Numbered from the stretch's first letter, positions 32,495-40,663 are shown. The stretch: 40,663 nt of DNA from Candidatus Poseidoniales archaeon (GCA_009887255.1 QXXW01000015.1:1-40663); one strand, 5' to 3'. Notes: generated from the sequence alone by a model not told the origin. A program made the numbers and translations.

Positions 32495-34279
32495 TCAGAC
32501 CCGCCGACGAAGTCGCTCCATAGCAGCATCTGCATCGCTCAAGTGGTTCAAACAAGCCGCAATGTCGCTCTCGCCCAATCGCTCGCCTGCCAAGGCCACC
32601 GCTTGTTCACACGCTCGACGGTCGTCGTCCTCAACACCGATGTTGGAGGCATCGCATTGATTCCGCAACACTCGCCATTCGTCCAGCACAAAATCGTACA
32701 GTTCCAAGGCCTCGTCTGCCTCTTGCCCCGCCTTGTCCAACTGGGATGTCATTCGGTCGAGGAGCATACCTGCATGGCTCCATTGCTGGTCGTGAGCGGC
32801 CTCCTCAATCTCCCTCAACCCTGTTCGCCAAGTTGCCTCGTCTGCACGCCCTTCGAAGCGCTTTAGGAGTTGTTTTTTCTGCTTGAGGGCACGACGCACA
32901 TCGTCCATAGCGATGCGTTCACGTTCGATGGTTCGAACGACACCGTCCGCCAAACCGATGGCTTGGGATGCTTGGCCTGAAGCAAGGGCAGCATCGGCCC
33001 GTTCAAGCCGCTGTTTCAATTCGGTCATGTCCAAGCCGTCCGTGCTTTCGATGGTGCGGTGAGCTTGTTTCACCGACTCAGCTGCTCGACCCAAAGCCTC
33101 GTCCCCCGCTGCCAACTGATCCGGGATGACGGTGGCAAGTTCGTAGGCTTCCTTTGGGGATTCGGCTGCAAGCCTGGCTTTGGCGTCCGTCAAGAGTTCC
33201 CGCAAATGAACGGCGTCATCGTTGGTGTTGCCGTCAAGTGCACGGGCGGCTTCCGAGATGGAGCGTTCTGCAACCTGCCACCATTCCACGACCTCAAGAG
33301 CACGTTTCTTTGCTTGTCGGAACAGGAGTTCTCCTTCACGAAGCGAACCGAGGTTGACCTCTCGAACCCCCATGTCGTATGCCTTGCGAGGGCGCTTGAC
33401 GACCGGTGCAAGCGATTCTGCTTCAACCACAGTTTTCAGAGACTCAGAGCGGACGGCATCCACGTCCCCCGCAAGGGAGACCGCTCTGTTCATGTCCTCC
33501 TCGCACTCGTCCAAGAGATTCATGCCGTATTCAAGGTCAAGGTGACCTTCCTCTTTCGCCGTGGACAAGAGGCTGGAGGCTTGGGCAACGGCTGCACCCT
33601 CCGCTTTCATCTGCAACAAACGCCCTTCCAACACGTTTAATCGGTTTTTGAAGGTCCTGCGCAGGTCTCGCTGGAGGTCACCTGCAAACCAATGATAGCC
33701 TGTGTCCATGACGGCGGCGGCAAGCACAACCGCTGACAGCTGTCCACCAAGAGAGTTCTGACCTGCTCCATTCAACACGAGCACCGCTGCGGTTAAGCAA
33801 CCCACTCCAGTCATCAGTGATCGGAATCGGAGCACGCCAAAGGAGCCTCGAAGAACCTTGGTGGACAGGGCACGGCAAACCATGGCAGCTGAGAACACCA
33901 TGGCTGACCCGGCGACGTTCTTCATGGAAGGATCGTCCAGACCAAGGACGCCCAAAACGGCCAAAACAGGCCAAGCCAACGATGACGATGCGCCAAGGCG
34001 AGAACGAGCTGATGCCTCATCGAGTGCCAAATCTTGAAGGAAAATCCCCCACAACAACAACACAACTGGTGGCCCGAAAGAAGCCAAATCCACTGATTCG
34101 GCTTGAATCATGGCGTTGATGGAAGGCCATGCCAGCCACAACGCAGAAGCGAGCATGAACAAGGCAACCACCAGGGTCAAATTCTCCACAAGACGCTGAC
34201 GCCGTGCCCGTTCGGTTTCAATGGCCGCGTCGGTGTCGGCCCAAGTCACCATGCTTTTGCCTCGCCCCATCTCCTCCAT
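32495..34279 (-). CDS. membrane protein with long helical-repeat/coiled-coil C-terminal region
   Basis: About 6 TM helices then ~390 aa of A/E/L/R-rich helices; start uncertain (34279, 34270 or 34252). Confidence 0.75.
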   Translation of the reverse strand: MEEMGRGKSMVTWADTDAAIETERARRQRLVENLTLVVALFMLASALWLAWPSINAMIQAESVDLASFGPPVVLLLWGIFLQDLALDEASARSRLGASSSLAWPVLAVLGVLGLDDPSMKNVAGSAMVFSAAMVCRALSTKVLRGSFGVLRFRSLMTGVGCLTAAVLVLNGAGQNSLGGQLSAVVLAAAVMDTGYHWFAGDLQRDLRRTFKNRLNVLEGRLLQMKAEGAAVAQASSLLSTAKEEGHLDLEYGMNLLDECEEDMNRAVSLAGDVDAVRSESLKTVVEAESLAPVVKRPRKAYDMGVREVNLGSLREGELLFRQAKKRALEVVEWWQVAERSISEAARALDGNTNDDAVHLRELLTDAKARLAAESPKEAYELATVIPDQLAAGDEALGRAAESVKQAHRTIESTDGLDMTELKQRLERADAALASGQASQAIGLADGVVRTIERERIAMDDVRRALKQKKQLLKRFEGRADEATWRTGLREIEEAAHDQQWSHAGMLLDRMTSQLDKAGQEADEALELYDFVLDEWRVLRNQCDASNIGVEDDDRRACEQAVALAGERLGESDIAACLNHLSDADAAMERLRRRV

Positions 34280-34370
34280 AATGACTGCGCTGTCAACATC
34301 ATTGCACTGAGGGGTGGTCCCCAAGGTTCAAGGGTGTCTTTCGGCAGTCGTTGAAAAGCGAGGGACAACC

Positions 34371-36786: not shown

Positions 36787-36829
36787 GGTCCACCCGGAAA
36801 GGCGAAACGGTTTCAATCCACCCCTGCAA

Positions 36830-37084
36830 GATGGAGTGTAATACTTACAAACTTATCAATATGAATTTTAATTTTTCAATTGAGAATTTAGACAACTTTC
36901 CGATTGACAATTCGCACTCAATGCGCCAACCAACTCCAGAATGGGGAGCATCTCGCCGATTGTCCATTGGGCTACCGTTAAATTTCAGTTGGAATTTCCA
37001 CCCAACTGAACAAAACGGCCCTTTGCCAGGATTAAGCGGTAAACTTCTTGAAGCCTACAGCGGTGTCGTGGGATTTGAGCCATC
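36830..37084. promoter_or_regulatory. AT-rich divergent control region with inverted repeat
   Basis: Very AT-rich tract 36838-36895; TTCAGTTGG-N9-CCAACTGAA at 36984-37010. Confidence 0.55.
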
Positions 37085-37444
37085 ATGTTGAACCGCGTGT
37101 TGACCGTTCTTCTTGAGAAAGAGTCGTTGGATGAAGTCTCCATGATTGACGACATGGGTCGCTTGTTGTCCAGCGTCACCCGGGCGGGGCGTTTGCCCGA
37201 TGCCGATGCTCACGTAGCCTTGCTCATTGATGCCCTTGAGGCTCAGCAACGAATGGGCCTTGGCGACCTGCATGAAGTGTGGGTCGAGGGAAAGGATCGG
37301 ACCCTCATTGACATCGTCACACCTCATCGAATTCTCATCGCTCAAGGCCGAGAAGGCCGTTTGGGCCGCTGGCGCCACAGTGTTGACCACCTTCGGTCGG
37401 CCTTGGCCACCACACCCTCCAAAGAGGTGACCGTTGATGTTTGA
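37085..37444 (+). CDS. Roadblock/LC7 (MglB-like) domain protein
   Basis: helix - EVSMIDDMGRLL - helix - MGLGDLHEVWVEG - two strands - RLGRWR helix fits the roadblock pattern and size. Confidence 0.65.
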   Translation: MLNRVLTVLLEKESLDEVSMIDDMGRLLSSVTRAGRLPDADAHVALLIDALEAQQRMGLGDLHEVWVEGKDRTLIDIVTPHRILIAQGREGRLGRWRHSVDHLRSALATTPSKEVTVDV

Positions 37445-40400
37445 ACTCCCGCAAGGCCAACCGTTTGAAGAATCGTTCAGCATAGAGGAGGGCTCCCTGT
37501 TGCCGTTTGCGCACGGCTCCATCACGACAAAGATTGGACGCCGGAAATCAGCATCTGGCCACCGATTGGTTCGAGGAGGCAAAGTCGTCGCTTGGATGGC
37601 CGTTAACGAGGAAGGCGCCTTGTTGGGTGGGCTGGACGCTCGCCTAGAATTGGAACGCATTGAGCGTGAAAACAAGACAAAACAGTTCGCAACCACGTAC
37701 ACCATTCGAGGCCTAGGGGACATTGCGGATGCACTCCCGGAAGCCTTTGAACACCAAGTTGACCGTCAAGGGCTTGGCTCCACGGTTAATTTCGTTGAAC
37801 GGCTTCTCGCCAGAGATTTGTCCACGGTCGTTGAACAGCTGGCAGCCAACGTTACCGTCCGAGGCGCACTGGCAATGGACGGCGGATTGCTCATCGACCA
37901 TGCCGGAGATTTGCCGGGTTTGGGCGAAGCCGAGACGGTTTGTGCTCATCTTCATGAGCTTCTCGCCGGGATGAACATGGAAACCGTGGCCGATGAATTG
38001 GGGCTTCGGGGGCAAGGACATCTGACTCTGCACAGCGACAAAGGAGCGTTGATGCTCGCCCAAACCGGCTCGATCGCCATCGCTGCATGGACTGAAAAGG
38101 ATGCCAACCATGCAAGGTTGATATCATCTGCATCCCTTGCCCTCGAGGGCGAATTGGGTGCTGCTGGGCACGGTGGGGCGAAACTGCCCGATGGGTTCAC
38201 TCTACGAGAAGGAAAGGGAGGTCCTGATGCGGTGGTGTCCATGCTCAAAGCATCCATGCACGAAACTGTCACTGGACATCTTCAATCAGGAAGCTCAAGC
38301 AAGGCTGTTTCCCTGGTGCTCGACCGAGGCGTCCCCATTGCGTGTTGGGCACCATCTGTTGACACCATCACGGAAGCGATGTCAATGCTCACGGACCCAA
38401 AACGGAAGGTCAAACTCATCCGCCTACCAGCAGGCACCATTGTGTCAGCTCAGTCAGGTACCATAGAAGGGTTCACCCTCTCCCAATGTTGTTCCGAACT
38501 CGCCAAGGTTCGCACCCGTTCCGAAGCCAGACAAAGCACCTTGACCGCTCTCTTGAACGAAACATTCGGATTTGAAATGGGGCTCCAGTCGCTTCAACAG
38601 TCCCGTTCCACCATGGCCTTTGTCTCATCAGGAATGGATGTTGCAGAACCTCTCCCTGTGGTCAAGGATCAAGCCTTGGCTGCCGTGGATGCAGGCTTGC
38701 GTCGCCGACTTGAGAAATCACAACAAGCCGAGGACAGCTTGAACCGTGATAAATCAAAGTTAGAACGGAAGATTGCTGAACTTGAAAAGAAGAAGGAAGC
38801 GGCACAAATCATCGCTCGCGAAGCGAGTGAATCACGGCAAGAACAGGTCGAGGTCGTCGAAAAGGCTCATGCGAAACTGAACGCTATGCAAGTCGATCTT
38901 GCACAAGCACGGAGCATCTCCGAGGAATCTTCGTCTCGGGCAGAACGTCTCATGCGGCGGGTCAACGAATTGGAGCATCAGGTCAGCGAACGAGCCGCTG
39001 AATTGGCGAAAGCGATTGGCGATTCATCCTCCAGCGCTGCTCTTCATGAAAATCTGGCTTCAATGGCTAGCAAGGAGGCAGAGTTGCAAGCCAACCTCGG
39101 CGAAGGAAGTCAACGCTTGACGACCATCCGTCAGCAAAGCGATGATGAGGAACGACGCTTGCGTGTGCTAACCGAGCAAGTCAGTTCTGCAAGAGAACGC
39201 CACGCTAGGGTACAGGCTGACTTGATCACGCTCAAAGAGCAGGTCCACCTTCATCACGTGGAACTTGAAGCATCCAGATCAGAAACCAAAGCGGCAAGAA
39301 CACGACTCGATGAAGATCGAGAGCGGAGAGCAGAAGAGGAATCACGCCGGTCCCATGTTCATGCGGAACTCAGAGAACTCATGGAGGAACGACGTGTGTT
39401 GCTGCGAGAATTGGGAGATCTGGGGGCCCGACGAGGTCATGCTGAAGCGGAATTGTCCTCTTTGGTCCATCAAGCGACCTCGTTGGCAGAAGCCCATGAA
39501 GAAGCCCTTGCAGACATCAAGGAAGCCGATCGACTCAGGGCCCGACTTGCCGACGAACCGCTTGCACAGGCCCTCCTCAACGACAACACCACATTTGAGG
39601 GACTCGGTCCCGTTCTGAGCCGGCTTGAGCATGCTCGCACGCTTGGTTATTCAGTGACCATGCTGGACCGAGCCGTTGAACGGTCCCTTCAAGTGATTCA
39701 ATCGACCGTGGATCACGTTGCCTCCACACCCCGTCACTTGCTCTCCAGTGAAGTCATGACGCTTCTTGAACGTCAAGTACCCCAAACCGCTGGTGCTGTT
39801 CGGGGATTGGCCCGATGGTCGGTGCAACAGCGTTTGGAGCATCAACTGGGTGACACCGTGAACCATGTTGTTGTTGATCTTGAACACCTCCTTGAAGAGT
39901 ACGACCGTTCCATCACCATGCTTCGTCGGATTCGAAATGTCCTCGAACAGGTGGAACGTCTTGGAGCTCCTGAACACGAGGTGAAGGCTCTTCTCGCCAA
40001 TTGTCAGCGACCTGAGGCTTTGCCAAGTTTGGCACAAGGAACCCGTCGCCTGATACAAGTGGCCCTCGACGACATCTATCTCGAGGCTGACCAACGGGAC
40101 GCAGGGGAAGCGATGGGCCTCGAAGAAACGGCGAAAGTACTCGAAGACCTCATCGCTCAAATTGATGCGTCGGGGCTCGCTGACGGTGTCCCATCGGGGA
40201 ATCTTTGGGATTTCCAACGCGATGGGCTCCTTCCATTCGAACGAGAGTCCATCCCAGAATCGCAACGGTTGCCAGTTACTGAAGGCATGCTTGAAGATCT
40301 TGAACCGCATTTGCTGGCTGCTGAGACGGTGGAAACCATCGCACCCGAGATTGAACCGGTCACCGATGATGCCGGATGGGCTGTTTTGCCGGCCCCATCA

Positions 40401-40610
40401 ATTGACGAATCGGTCATGCCTGCACCTTCACCTCAATCCGTAGAACCAACGGTGACCTCCCTTGAAGACGAACGGGCAGCCCTCGAGGCTGAACTGGCCC
40501 GTATTGACGCTGCTTGGGGCCACCGAGAATCCGCCATCACACCCTTGACCTCTGCCAAGGATGCTGCATTGAACGACTTGGAATCCAGGTTGTCAGAACT
40601 TGATTTTTGA
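37437..40610 (+). CDS. multidomain protein: PATAN/DUF2226-like, Roadblock/LC7, PATAN/DUF2226-like, long coiled coil, helical domain and acidic tail
   Basis: GAGGTGA RBS at 37424; roadblock VRGALAMDGGLLI..ELGL..LTLHSDKGALML..EKDANHA; two LPxG..G..GxP/V modules; heptad-rich ~38690-39550; no Walker A. Confidence 0.75.
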   Translation: MFELPQGQPFEESFSIEEGSLLPFAHGSITTKIGRRKSASGHRLVRGGKVVAWMAVNEEGALLGGLDARLELERIERENKTKQFATTYTIRGLGDIADALPEAFEHQVDRQGLGSTVNFVERLLARDLSTVVEQLAANVTVRGALAMDGGLLIDHAGDLPGLGEAETVCAHLHELLAGMNMETVADELGLRGQGHLTLHSDKGALMLAQTGSIAIAAWTEKDANHARLISSASLALEGELGAAGHGGAKLPDGFTLREGKGGPDAVVSMLKASMHETVTGHLQSGSSSKAVSLVLDRGVPIACWAPSVDTITEAMSMLTDPKRKVKLIRLPAGTIVSAQSGTIEGFTLSQCCSELAKVRTRSEARQSTLTALLNETFGFEMGLQSLQQSRSTMAFVSSGMDVAEPLPVVKDQALAAVDAGLRRRLEKSQQAEDSLNRDKSKLERKIAELEKKKEAAQIIAREASESRQEQVEVVEKAHAKLNAMQVDLAQARSISEESSSRAERLMRRVNELEHQVSERAAELAKAIGDSSSSAALHENLASMASKEAELQANLGEGSQRLTTIRQQSDDEERRLRVLTEQVSSARERHARVQADLITLKEQVHLHHVELEASRSETKAARTRLDEDRERRAEEESRRSHVHAELRELMEERRVLLRELGDLGARRGHAEAELSSLVHQATSLAEAHEEALADIKEADRLRARLADEPLAQALLNDNTTFEGLGPVLSRLEHARTLGYSVTMLDRAVERSLQVIQSTVDHVASTPRHLLSSEVMTLLERQVPQTAGAVRGLARWSVQQRLEHQLGDTVNHVVVDLEHLLEEYDRSITMLRRIRNVLEQVERLGAPEHEVKALLANCQRPEALPSLAQGTRRLIQVALDDIYLEADQRDAGEAMGLEETAKVLEDLIAQIDASGLADGVPSGNLWDFQRDGLLPFERESIPESQRLPVTEGMLEDLEPHLLAAETVETIAPEIEPVTDDAGWAVLPAPSIDESVMPAPSPQSVEPTVTSLEDERAALEAELARIDAAWGHRESAITPLTSAKDAALNDLESRLSELDF

Positions 40611-40619
40611 GGCCTCACC

Positions 40620-40663
40620 ATGAGTGAACATGAAACCCTGATGGGGCGGGATGAGCGACCGGG
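40620..40663 (+). CDS. 5' fragment of a probable next operon gene (MSEHETLMGRDERP...)
   Basis: ATG 9 nt after the previous stop; frame stays open to the window end. Confidence 0.45.
   Translation, partial: MSEHETLMGRDERP

What the first reader, a model, noticed from the sequence alone, without database searches (positions are those of the whole stretch)
37085..40663. Roadblock/PATAN-like/coiled-coil operon: candidate archaeal cell-polarity or cytoskeletal scaffold system
Seen: a 119-aa gene overlaps the next by 8 nt (ATGTTTGA, with GAGGTGA RBS), followed by a ~1057-aa gene and a probable third start 9 nt later. The small protein and 37815-38150 of the large one both fit the Roadblock/LC7 pattern. 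The internal roadblock is flanked by two similar modules (MFELPQG..GSI..GHRLVRGGKVVAW and KLPDG..TGHL..SLVLDRGVPIACW), then ~290 aa of coiled coil with no NTPase motif. Known: roadblock domains dimerise and act as GAPs or scaffolds for small GTPases (Myxococcus MglB/MglA, eukaryotic Ragulator, dynein LC7); PATAN domains co-occur with such modules. Inference: the small protein pairs with the internal roadblock, tethering a GTPase switch to a filament-like scaffold. I do not recognise this architecture as characterised.
Basis: partly seen in the sequence, partly recalled or inferred. Interest (0 to 1): 0.85.

Follow-up and report, generated by a model that had tools for sequence, protein, structure and literature searches.

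The report
Archaeal roadblock pair on coiled-coil scaffold
Marine Group II archaea carry a conserved, uncharacterised operon in which a small roadblock protein probably pairs with a roadblock domain inside a very long coiled-coil protein, but no small GTPase for it to regulate was found in the six genomes searched.

Summary
A 119-aa ORF (37085-37444) overlaps a 1057-aa ORF (37437-40610) by 8 nt, and a third ORF starts 9 nt after the stop.

- **Roadblock folds.** The small protein has a confident Roadblock/LC7 fold: pLDDT 90.4, Z 15.6 to an Asgard roadblock, Z 14.4 to MglB. Residues 122-237 of the large protein take the same fold (Z 10.4 to MglB), though that part of the model is low-confidence. 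One ortholog passes Pfam's Robl_LC7 cut-off there.
- **Pairing.** A complex prediction pairs the two roadblocks through helix alpha2 and strand beta3, the canonical dimer interface (score 0.75, best control 0.00).
- **Linkage.** The pair is adjacent in all 32 loci examined. Both genes are missing together from five otherwise syntenic genomes.
- **Range.** The family was found only in Poseidoniales (0 of 166 other Thermoplasmatota sampled).
- **Not supported.** PATAN membership fails (DUF4388 hits 0 of 16). The two flanking modules show no profile similarity. No small Ras-like GTPase was found in six genomes.
- **New.** A length-invariant coiled coil, a C-terminal helical domain that is the most conserved part, and a downstream two-helix membrane protein that persists without the pair.

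Best reading: a roadblock-heterodimer scaffold with an unknown client. It is a new variant of a known kind and moderately interesting.

The parts
36817..37084 (+). Intergenic region between the divergent PP-loop gene and the small gene. It presumably holds the promoter and 5' leader.
   Evidence: One RNA-Seq contig, identical to the window, covers 37026-37296. That is a weak hint of transcription starting at or before 37026. No promoter element was tested.
37085..37444 (+). Small gene: a 119-aa stand-alone Roadblock/LC7-fold protein, soluble.
   Evidence: ORF. AF2 gives pLDDT 90.4 with alpha-beta-beta-alpha-beta-beta-beta-alpha order. VIA-align: 9jue_D Z 15.6 (rmsd 2.3, 113 aligned), MglB 3t1r_A Z 14.4. 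Pfam Robl_LC7 hits 12 of 21 family members, best E 9.8e-5; the window's own copy gets none. The G014 ortholog scores 25.7 bits, over the cut-off. No hydrophobic segment.
37424..37430 (+). Shine-Dalgarno-like GAGGTGA, 6 nt before the large gene's ATG.
   Evidence: Read directly from the sequence.
37437..40610 (+). Large gene: a 1057-aa soluble multidomain protein whose start overlaps the small gene's stop by 8 nt.
   Evidence: Orthologs of 1022-1105 aa occur across the order. No hydrophobic segment. No Walker A.
37437..37772 (+). Module M1 (aa 1-112): beta-rich N-terminal module with a nearly invariant MF-x-L-P-x-G start. Fold unassigned.
   Evidence: AF2 block pLDDT is 74-86 over aa 1-100, with strands at 8-10, 26-33, 38-46, 49-56, 62-64 and 81-87 and helices at 65-78 and 90-99. 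Conservation. No Pfam or PDB sequence match.
37800..38147 (+). Internal Roadblock/LC7 domain (aa 122-237).
   Evidence: VIA-align: MglB 6hjm_A Z 10.4 (rmsd 3.3, 107 aligned, model 125-235); Asgard roadblocks Z 9.8-10.0. Foldseek top hits are LAMTOR2, MP1, MglB and LC7 at E about 1e-5. Model pLDDT here is only 40-57. The G002 ortholog (aa 132-214) scores 25.2 bits against Robl_LC7, cut-off 23. Robl_LC7 hits 3 of 16 orthologs.
38169..38471 (+). Module M2 (aa 245-345): alpha/beta module in beta-alpha-beta-beta-beta-alpha-beta order. Fold unassigned.
   Evidence: AF2 block pLDDT is 78-90. Pfam DUF4388 hits 0 of 16. No paralog in five genomes. Not similar to M1 by hhalign.
38472..38666 (+). Linker helices (aa 346-410), holding the conserved R-T-R-S-E and F-G-F-E motifs.
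   Evidence: AF2 helices at 348-357 and 363-392. Conservation.
38667..39536 (+). Coiled-coil stalk (aa 411-700), conserved in length.
   Evidence: Pro/Gly-free runs at 421-527, 529-554, 558-659 and 668-707. Only 3 of 290 alignment columns hold a gap among 16 orthologs that are 33-59% identical. Only weak Rad50, SMC and JetC coiled-coil matches.
39537..40256 (+). C-terminal helical domain (aa 701-940), the most conserved part of the protein and specific to the order.
   Evidence: Mean column identity is 0.72, against 0.46-0.56 for the other parts, with 2 of 240 gap columns. An HMM of aa 690-945 matched 27 of 201 Thermoplasmatota genomes, all Poseidoniales, one copy each. No Pfam, PDB or Atlas relative.
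40257..40607 (+). Acidic variable linker followed by two short conserved C-terminal helices.
   Evidence: Net charge is -11 and -7 in the last two full 50-aa blocks. 81 of 163 columns hold a gap. The final roughly 45 residues align across the order.
40620..40663 (+). Start of a third gene: 85 aa with two hydrophobic helices. It runs past the window end to contig position 40877.
   Evidence: Two hydrophobic segments. Family HMM hits 18 of 20 pair-holding loci, 15 of them by construction, and also the five pair-lacking genomes. No Pfam family.

Best explanation
This is a Poseidoniales-specific operon that builds a cytoplasmic scaffold.

- The 119-aa roadblock protein is made by coupled translation with the 1057-aa protein.
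- It docks onto the roadblock domain embedded in that protein's N-terminal head (aa 122-237). The two pack their alpha2 helices and join their beta3 strands edge to edge. This forms the usual two-roadblock platform as a heterodimer.
- The head also carries two further modules of unassigned fold (M1, M2).
- It sits on a roughly 290-residue coiled coil of fixed length.
- The coiled coil ends in a highly conserved helical domain and an acidic tail.

I read it as an adaptor or spacer. It would hold an unidentified client, bound at the roadblock platform, at a set distance from whatever the C-terminal domain binds. It does not look like an MglA/MglB-type Ras switch.

Shown: the folds, the gene linkage and the taxonomic range. 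Predicted: the heterodimer. Inferred: the adaptor or spacer role and the existence of a client.
For: Folds:
- Small protein: pLDDT 90.4, Z 15.6 / 14.5 / 14.4 to roadblock and MglB structures.
- Internal domain: Z 10.4 to MglB.
- An ortholog passes the Pfam cut-off in that domain.

Pairing:
- ipSAE was 0.75, 0.75 and 0.79 in three runs; the best of three controls was 0.00.
- That mark was reached by 58 of 80 solved complexes and 2 of 110 mismatched pairs.
- The runs share at least 89% of contacts, and the partner's pLDDT is at least 81.
- The interface is large-protein residues 160-205 and 225-226 against small-protein residues 39-73 and 93. That is alpha2 plus beta3 on both sides.
- The small protein's most conserved residues, W66 and E68, lie in this interface.

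Coupling:
- The small gene's stop and the large gene's start lie -8 to +20 nt apart in 28 of 28 loci measured; in a 29th the start motif was not found.
- A small roadblock-like ORF sits directly upstream in 32 of 32 loci. Of these, 29 are HMM hits and 3 are divergent ORFs judged by eye.
- Both genes are missing together from 5 of 5 otherwise syntenic genomes.

Spacer idea:
- The coiled coil has 3 gap columns in 290.
- The C-terminal domain is the most conserved part, at 0.72 column identity.

Not a Ras switch:
- Ras, Arf and Roc models find no small GTPase in the window's own genome.
- In five genomes that are 92-97% complete, the Ras model hits only ORFs of 374 and 669 aa.
Against: - Roadblock dimers are well represented among solved structures. 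The complex score may therefore reflect likeness rather than this pair's real binding, as the tool itself warns.
- Homodimers of either partner were not tested as alternatives.
- The internal roadblock has low confidence in the monomer model, pLDDT 40-57.
- Profile comparison of the small family with the internal domain is only marginal: E 0.013 over 31 columns.
- Nothing shows that the helical region forms a coiled coil or that the protein oligomerises.
- The folds of M1, M2 and the C-terminal domain are unknown.
- No client or binding partner was identified, so the adaptor or spacer role is inference from architecture alone.
- The window's genome is 82% complete, and divergent GTPases could escape the Pfam models.
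Confidence: 0.55

Rival explanations
1. The roadblock pair is an MglB-like GAP or GEF platform that tethers a small Ras-like GTPase switch to a filament-like scaffold, controlling polarity or motility.
For: MglB is among the best structural matches of both roadblocks. Roadblock dimers commonly act on small GTPases, and MglB genes have been reported near PATAN genes (passages of PMC4316618; passages of PMC10933270). The language-model search lists PatA_N and Robl_LC7 clusters at 0.85-0.89, which the tool rates as a lead only.
Against: No small GTPase was found by Ras, Arf or Roc models in the window's own genome, nor by the Ras model in five near-complete relatives. DUF4388 hits 0 of 16 orthologs and 0 of 201 genomes. 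The pair and archaellin disagree in 5 of 21 genera. Rinke et al. report a marked absence of chemotaxis genes in the order (passage of PMC6461757).
Confidence: 0.1
2. The roadblock platform regulates or recruits an NTPase outside the Ras family, such as a tubulin-family, KaiC-like or AAA+ protein. The stalk positions that enzyme.
For: The roadblock superfamily is described as implicated in NTPase regulation in general (Koonin and Aravind 2000, as cited in the PMC4316618 passage). No Ras-type partner was found, so a different client is needed if there is one.
Against: No NTPase gene is linked to the pair. The neighbours are a PP-loop enzyme, PyrB/PyrI, DUF58, DUF4350 and a convergent CDC48, and all of them stay in place when the pair is lost. 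No candidate was tested.
Confidence: 0.15
3. The roadblocks do not form a heterodimer. The large protein forms a parallel coiled-coil homodimer whose two internal roadblocks pair with each other. The small protein forms its own homodimer and binds as a separate unit, in the manner of MglB with MglC.
For: Stand-alone prokaryotic roadblocks solved so far are homodimers (PDB titles; PMC10933270 passages). A parallel coiled coil would bring two internal roadblocks together.
Against: The heterodimer prediction is confident and uses the canonical interface. The tight translational coupling fits 1:1 assembly.
Confidence: 0.15
4. The scaffold is anchored to the membrane through the downstream two-helix membrane protein. 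It organises an envelope or surface structure at a fixed distance below the membrane.
For: The third ORF starts 9 nt after the large gene's stop on the same strand. It starts within 18 nt in 15 of 20 loci. It has two hydrophobic helices and a conserved cytoplasmic N-terminal motif.
Against: An ortholog of the third gene stays in the same position in 5 of 5 genomes that have lost the pair, so it does not depend on the pair. Its E-values there run from 4e-9 to 0.03, and two are above 0.001. In G004 a FG-GAP gene separates it from the large gene. No interaction was tested.
Confidence: 0.12
5. It is an SMC, Rad50 or JetC-like chromosome or defence protein.
For: Weak NCBIfam and PADLOC matches to Rad50, SMC and JetC over aa 409-847 (E 1.9e-4 to 1.2e-3).
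Against: Scores are 15-20 bits against cut-offs of 567-1087 and cover only the coiled coil. There is no Walker A motif. There are no ATPase heads, and no partner genes of those systems lie nearby.
Confidence: 0.02

Closest known systems
MglB (Myxococcus xanthus, Thermus thermophilus), a Roadblock/LC7 homodimer that acts on the Ras-like GTPase MglA
   Same: Same fold for both the small protein (Z 14.2-14.4) and the internal domain (Z 9.3-10.4). The predicted dimer uses the same alpha2/beta3 interface.
   Different: Here the dimer is predicted to be a heterodimer with one partner embedded in a 1057-aa protein. No MglA-like GTPase was found. Sequence identity to MglB is 12-20%.
Ragulator LAMTOR2/LAMTOR3 (p14/MP1) and LAMTOR4/5 roadblock heterodimers
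   Same: They are roadblock heterodimers used as a scaffold platform. They are the top Foldseek matches of the internal domain (E 1.4e-5 to 4e-5), and the small protein matches them at Z 14.0.
   Different: Ragulator is held on a membrane by the extended LAMTOR1 and binds Rag GTPases (PMC10933270 passage). Here one roadblock is fused to a coiled coil, no Rag-like GTPase was found, and membrane attachment is unproven.
Asgard archaeal roadblock proteins (PDB 7f8m, 7yh1, 9jue, 9jq8; Tran et al. 2024, PMC10933270)
   Same: Closest archaeal structures: Z 15.6 for the small protein and 9.8-10.0 for the internal domain. They are also the best PDB sequence-profile hit (7f8m_A, E 0.0079).
   Different: Those are stand-alone homodimers in genomes rich in small GTPases. 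This is a Thermoplasmatota lineage with a fused architecture and no detected small GTPase.
Bacterial PATAN (DUF4388/PatA_N) proteins associated or fused with Roadblock domains
   Same: The language-model feature search of aa 1-345 lists a PatA_N cluster at 0.89 and a Myxococcota cluster (PatA_N 100%, Robl_LC7 30%) at 0.85. MglB genes have been reported near PATAN genes (PMC4316618 passage). From recall, the strand and helix order of M2 resembles that of PATAN.
   Different: The DUF4388 HMM hits none of 16 orthologs for M1 or M2 at E <= 10 and none of 201 genomes of the phylum. The scores fall below the tool's own 0.9 line for more than a lead.
SMC/Rad50/MukB-type long coiled-coil proteins
   Same: A long helical stalk of conserved length, with weak coiled-coil matches.
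   Different: No ATPase head and no Walker A motif. The terminal domains are unrelated.

Membership tests
Roadblock/LC7 (Pfam PF03259): small protein | alpha-beta-beta-alpha-beta-beta-beta(-alpha) fold that superposes on solved roadblock proteins | tested here: met
   AF2 pLDDT 90.4 with that element order. Z 15.6 to 9jue_D (rmsd 2.3, 113 aligned), Z 14.5 to 3kye_A, Z 14.4 to 3t1r_A.
Roadblock/LC7 (Pfam PF03259): small protein | Match to the family's sequence model | tested here: inconclusive
   The window's own copy gets no Pfam hit at E <= 10. Among family members, 12 of 21 hit Robl_LC7, best E 9.8e-5. The G014 ortholog scores 25.7 bits, over the cut-off of 23. The family profile's best PDB hits are Robl_LC7 proteins, at E 0.0079.
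Roadblock/LC7 (Pfam PF03259): internal domain, aa 122-237 | Roadblock fold | tested here: met
   Z 10.4 to MglB 6hjm_A (rmsd 3.3, 107 aligned) and Z 9.8-10.0 to four archaeal roadblocks. Caveat: model pLDDT is 40-57 in this stretch.
Roadblock/LC7 (Pfam PF03259): internal domain, aa 122-237 | Match to the family's sequence model | tested here: inconclusive
   The window's copy gets none. Among orthologs, 3 of 16 hit. The G002 ortholog (aa 132-214) scores 25.2 bits, over the cut-off, covering model positions 4-88 of 91.
Roadblock/LC7 | Dimerisation through alpha2 helices and edge-to-edge beta3 strands | tested here: met
   Met by prediction only. ipSAE 0.75 against a best control of 0.00. Contacts are large-protein residues 195-201 with small-protein residues 61-68, plus the alpha2 helices. 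Not measured experimentally.
MglA/MglB-type GTPase switch | A cognate small Ras-superfamily GTPase encoded in the genome | tested here: not met
   Ras, Arf and Roc models give no hit over the cut-off in the window's own genome, which is 82% complete. In five relatives that are 92-97% complete, the Ras model hits only ORFs of 374 and 669 aa. Very divergent GTPases could be missed.
MglA/MglB-type GTPase switch | GAP or GEF activity on that GTPase | not testable with these tools
   Needs biochemistry.
PATAN / DUF4388 (Pfam PF14332) | Match to the family's sequence model | tested here: not met
   0 of 16 orthologs for M1 and 0 of 16 for M2 at E <= 10. 0 of 201 genomes of the phylum at E <= 1e-5.
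PATAN / DUF4388 (Pfam PF14332) | PATAN fold | tested here: inconclusive
   M1 and M2 could not be searched alone. The Atlas feature lead is 0.85-0.89.
SMC / Rad50 / JetC | ABC-type ATPase head with Walker A and B motifs flanking the coiled coil | tested here: not met
   No Walker A motif. Matches of 15-20 bits against cut-offs of 567-1087 cover only the coiled coil.
Ragulator-like scaffold | Roadblock heterodimers held on a membrane that bind Rag-type GTPases | tested here: inconclusive
   A heterodimer is predicted. A membrane link through the third gene is untested and not obligatory. No Rag-like GTPase was sought with a Gtr1/RagA model; the Ras, Arf and Roc models found none.

The most novel reading that the evidence does not exclude
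Poseidoniales, the most abundant archaea of the surface ocean, may build a GTPase-independent, Ragulator-like platform. A roadblock heterodimer would sit on a rigid ruler of fixed length, with an order-specific C-terminal domain and possibly a small membrane protein fixing it in the cell. That would position an as yet unknown machine. It would be the first prokaryotic roadblock heterodimer built into a cytoskeleton-like protein, and it would show roadblock platforms working without Ras-family switches.
Probability: 0.2. Interest if true: 0.7.

Novelty: new variant of a known kind. Interest (0 to 1): 0.5.

Why it matters
Roadblock domains are ancient platforms. They are known mainly as partners of small GTPases (MglB, Ragulator, Asgard systems) or of dynein.

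Here a roadblock pair is tied to a long coiled-coil protein in a lineage where no small GTPase was found. If the pairing is real, it widens what roadblock platforms are used for in archaea.

It also gives a first handle on the cell biology of Marine Group II archaea, which are abundant but uncultured. The pair was lost as a unit in the small-genome Thalassarchaeaceae genera. That gives a natural contrast for finding its partners by phylogenetic profiling.

Tried and rejected
**Link to the archaellum.** I compared presence of the large protein with archaellin PF01917 in the same 121 genomes.
- 11 genera have both and 5 have neither.
- 3 genera have only the pair (g9, g10, g18).
- 2 genera have only archaellin (g16, g21).
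- Rejected as an obligate link.

**Similarity of M1 and M2, and of either to the roadblocks.** hhalign gave E 0.15 to 0.5. Whole-alignment hhalign of the small family against the large one gave E 0.19. No support.

**PATAN.** The Pfam model found nothing. I could not obtain bona fide PATAN sequences for a profile-profile test.

**C-terminal domain.**
- No usable Atlas hit.
- Only marginal PDB profile hits to bacterial FliS (E 0.009), which I treat as helical-bundle noise.
- Only sub-threshold scattered Pfam hits.

**M1 and M2 against PDB sequences.** Nothing below E 0.07.

**Paralogs of M2.** Weak single-sequence hits in giant ORFs disappeared when the HMM was used.

**Shorter or differently built relatives of the N-terminal head.** All 26 hits are fragments of the same family on short contigs.

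**Defence-system models.** Only coiled-coil noise.

**Inserted genes.** The genes inserted next to the operon in two genomes are FG-GAP and CARDB surface proteins, not NTPases.

**Expression.**
- Three of the four runs laid are contigs of libraries that are probably DNA.
- The one RNA-Seq run gives a single 271-nt contig.
- No statement on co-transcription is possible.

**The open_frame_aa figure.** It suggested a fusion of the small and large genes in genus g2. Direct translation shows an in-frame TGA between them, so they are not fused.

**Not done for lack of jobs.**
- Separate folds of M1, M2 and the C-terminal domain.
- The full-length model.
- Homodimer controls for the complex.

**Papers.**
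- PMC4316618, PMC6461757 and PMC10933270 were read as 'find' passages only.
- The other papers were seen only as search listings.
- Makarova et al. 2006 on PATAN is recalled and cited through PMC4316618, not read.
- Supplements were not opened. The supplementary tables of PMC4316618 (GTPase census) and PMC6461757 (gene presence by genus) may bear on the GTPase and archaellum statements.

Full report
**1.

The window lies at positions 1-40663 of a 58,847-nt contig, in a genome of 1.75 Mb that is 82% complete.

- A 119-aa ORF runs from 37085 to 37444.
- A 1057-aa ORF starts at the ATG at 37437 and ends at 40610.
- The two overlap by 8 nt (ATGTTTGA), and GAGGTGA lies 6 nt before the second ATG.
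- A third ATG at 40620, 9 nt after the stop, opens an 85-aa ORF that runs off the window.

Neither of the first two proteins matches a Pfam or NCBIfam family. The only hits are weak coiled-coil matches to Rad50 and SMC, at 15-20 bits against cut-offs of 567-1087.

**2. The small protein is a roadblock protein**

- With an alignment of 21 family members, AlphaFold2 gives mean pLDDT 90.4. The element order is alpha-beta-beta-alpha-beta-beta-beta-alpha.
- A search of 48,161 PDB representatives puts roadblock proteins on top:
  - Prometheoarchaeum Roadblock3, 9jue_D: Z 15.6, rmsd 2.3, 113 aligned.
  - A Streptomyces roadblock: Z 14.5.
  - MglB, 3t1r_A: Z 14.4.
- At sequence level the window's own copy is below Pfam's reach. 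Even so, 12 of 21 family members hit Robl_LC7 (best E 9.8e-5).
- One ortholog passes the curated cut-off (25.7 bits).
- The family profile's best PDB hits are Robl_LC7 proteins (E 0.0079).
- The family is small. Only 17 clusters among 1.84 billion representatives match at E <= 0.001, all 68-141 aa long.

**3. Anatomy of the large protein**

| Part | Residues | What was found |
|---|---|---|
| M1 | 1-112 | Beta-rich, block pLDDT 74-86, fold unassigned |
| Internal roadblock | 122-237 | Roadblock order of elements, pLDDT only 40-57 |
| M2 | 245-345 | Alpha/beta, block pLDDT 78-90, fold unassigned |
| Linker | 346-410 | Two helices |
| Coiled coil | 411-700 | Almost free of Pro and Gly, highly charged |
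| C-terminal domain | 701-940 | Helical, most conserved part |
| Tail | 941-1057 | Acidic and variable, ending in two short conserved helices |

- All 50 listed fold matches of the 438-aa model fall on aa 122-237. MglB 6hjm_A leads at Z 10.4 (rmsd 3.3, 107 aligned), and four archaeal roadblocks follow at Z 9.8-10.0.
- Foldseek agrees, with LAMTOR2, MP1, MglB and LC7 at E about 1e-5.
- In the ortholog from genome G002, the same stretch (aa 132-214) passes Pfam's Robl_LC7 cut-off at 25.2 bits. Of 16 orthologs, 3 hit the model.
- The protein has no Walker A or NKxD motif and no hydrophobic segment.
- Mean column identity by part is 0.72 for the C-terminal domain, 0.56 for the coiled coil, 0.51 for M1 and M2, 0.46 for the roadblock and 0.36 for the tail.
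- Among 16 orthologs that are 33-59% identical, only 3 of 290 coiled-coil columns and 2 of 240 C-terminal-domain columns hold a gap. In the tail, 81 of 163 do.

So the stalk length is under constraint, and the C-terminal domain, not the roadblock, is the most conserved element.

**4. The two roadblocks are predicted to pair**

- I folded the small protein with residues 1-345 of the large one. ipSAE was 0.75, 0.75 and 0.79 in three runs, against 0.00 for the best of three controls.
- That mark was reached by 58 of 80 solved complexes and 2 of 110 mismatched pairs. These counts hold only roughly, because my own alignments were used.
- The runs share at least 89% of contacts, and the partner's pLDDT is at least 81.
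- The interface is helix alpha2 plus strand beta3 on both sides. Large-protein residues 195-201 run antiparallel to small-protein residues 61-68. This is the canonical roadblock dimer.
- The small family's most conserved residues, W66 and E68, lie in this interface.
- Caveats: many roadblock dimers have been solved, so the pass may reflect likeness. Homodimer alternatives could not be run.

**5. Linkage and taxonomic range**

Distribution within the order:
- The N-terminal part of the large protein was found in 76 of 121 genomes sampled.
- By family it was found in 57 of 59 of f1, 2 of 2 of f2 and 16 of 59 of f3.
- Record titles and Rinke et al. suggest that f1 is Poseidoniaceae and f3 is Thalassarchaeaceae.
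- The seven genera without it have genomes of about 1.3-1.6 Mb.

Adjacency of the two genes:
- A small-family HMM hit lies directly upstream in 29 of 32 loci. That is 27 of 30 genomes, since two genomes were fetched twice.
- The other three loci hold a divergent ORF of about 100 aa there, with a roadblock-like start as judged by eye.
- The distance from the small gene's stop to the large gene's start is -8 to +20 nt in 28 of 28 loci measured. In a 29th locus the start motif was not found.

Synteny alone does not prove the link, but co-loss does:
- The whole neighbourhood is collinear across the order: PyrB, PyrI, a divergent PP-loop gene, then convergent DUF58, DUF4350 and CDC48 genes.
- In 5 of 5 genomes that lack the large protein, this neighbourhood is intact and exactly the two genes are missing.

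Range beyond the order:
- The C-terminal-domain HMM matched 27 of 201 sampled Thermoplasmatota genomes. All are Poseidoniales, with one copy each, and 0 of 166 genomes outside the order matched.
- The small-family HMM gave the same picture, with one weak outside hit at E 2.5e-4.
- Across 185,579 species genomes, 294 stretches encode a relative. The 80 best are Marine Group II-type MAGs, except one record labelled Verrucomicrobiales.

**6. The third gene**

- The 85-aa product has two hydrophobic helices. It also carries a conserved cytoplasmic N-terminal motif.
- Its family HMM was built from 15 loci. It also finds the gene in three further pair-holding loci and in the window's own contig. In total it is found in 18 of 20 loci; one of the two misses has ambiguous bases and the other ends at the large gene.
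- An ortholog also sits in the same place in all five pair-lacking genomes (E 4e-9 to 0.03). The shared motif is visible in the sequences.
- So the third gene does not depend on the pair. Whether the pair uses it as a membrane anchor remains open. It matches no Pfam family.

**7. What was not supported**

- **PATAN.** The DUF4388 model hits 0 of 16 orthologs for M1 and 0 of 16 for M2 at E <= 10. It hits nothing in the window's own genome or in 201 genomes of the phylum. M1 and M2 are not alike by hhalign (E 0.15). The only pointer is the Atlas feature search of aa 1-345. It lists a Robl_LC7 cluster at 0.90, a PatA_N cluster at 0.89 and a Myxococcota PatA_N-plus-Robl_LC7 cluster at 0.85. The tool rates these values as leads only.
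- **GTPase switch.** Ras, Arf and Roc models find no small GTPase in the window's own genome. In five relatives that are 92-97% complete, the Ras model hits only ORFs of 374 and 669 aa.
- **Motility or polarity.** Presence of the pair and of archaellin disagree in 5 of 21 genera. Rinke et al. note a marked absence of chemotaxis genes in the order.
- **Defence or SMC-like roles.** Only coiled-coil noise.

**8. Mechanism**

The best-supported reading is a scaffold.
- A roadblock heterodimer is assembled co-translationally at the head of a soluble protein. This step is predicted.
- A stalk of fixed length and an order-specific C-terminal domain make up the rest. These features are shown.
- Together they would hold a client, bound at the platform, at a set distance from the C-terminal domain's target. 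This step is inferred.

The rivals are a Ras-type switch, a non-Ras NTPase client, homodimeric rather than heterodimeric roadblocks, membrane anchoring through the third gene, and an SMC-like role.

**9. Comparison with known systems, and novelty**

It works most like the roadblock platforms of MglB, Ragulator and the Asgard roadblocks.

It is not a member of the MglA/MglB system, because no GTPase was found. It did not meet PATAN membership by the sequence model (the fold could not be tested), and it is not an SMC-type protein.

Three full-text searches found no description of such a protein in Poseidoniales: 'PATAN, roadblock, archaea'; 'Poseidoniales, roadblock'; and 'roadblock, coiled-coil, archaea, MglB'. 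The sources that name it call it hypothetical.

I rate it a new variant of a known kind. It is of moderate interest, because roadblock proteins are common and mostly uncharacterised in archaea, and because no function can yet be assigned.

Expression evidence is minimal. One RNA-Seq contig covers 37026-37296.

Noticed in passing
window 32495-34324 (-): A 609-aa ORF with no Pfam family. The sequence looks like an N-terminal membrane part followed by a long charged helical part. It is conserved across the order, including the genomes that lack the roadblock pair, at 27-70% identity.
   Followed up: partly
L003 1291-1623 (-) (own genome, contig C71): A second stand-alone roadblock gene of 110 aa: Robl_LC7 22.0 bits, MAPKK1_Int 21.8 bits. 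It lies next to a 291-aa charged, helical-looking ORF; a 158-aa ORF and a 252-aa charged ORF follow on the other side. It would be a natural decoy or alternative partner for the pair.
   Followed up: partly
L020 7985-7987 and L061 (genomes G003, G012; genus g2): In these two genomes of genus g2, the small and large ORFs are in the same reading frame, separated only by one TGA and three codons. The open_frame_aa figure reads through this stop and wrongly suggests a fusion.
   Followed up: yes
L020 4800-7975 (-) (genome G003, record CM001443.1): The large gene is split here into a 948-aa ORF and a separate C-terminal piece. This is either a frameshift or an assembly error.
   Followed up: no
L102 (record titled Verrucomicrobiales bacterium): One of the 80 best loci encoding the C-terminal domain, at 88% identity, comes from a MAG labelled as a bacterium. 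The contig was probably mis-binned.
   Followed up: no
L002 864-7589 (-) (same contig, beyond the window end): A convergent, order-wide conserved cluster: a 405-aa membrane ORF with no Pfam family, DUF58, DUF4350 and a CDC48-type AAA ATPase. It stays in place when the roadblock pair is lost.
   Followed up: partly
L027 9120-10505 (+) and L028 2615-6853 (+): Lineage-specific insertions beside the operon. In G004 a FG-GAP repeat protein lies between the large and third genes. In G002 a 1412-aa CARDB-domain ORF lies convergent to the third gene.
   Followed up: yes
third ORF just beyond the window end (L002): A short run of N interrupts the third ORF in the held contig, so four residues read X. 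I used orthologs for all analyses of this protein.
   Followed up: no
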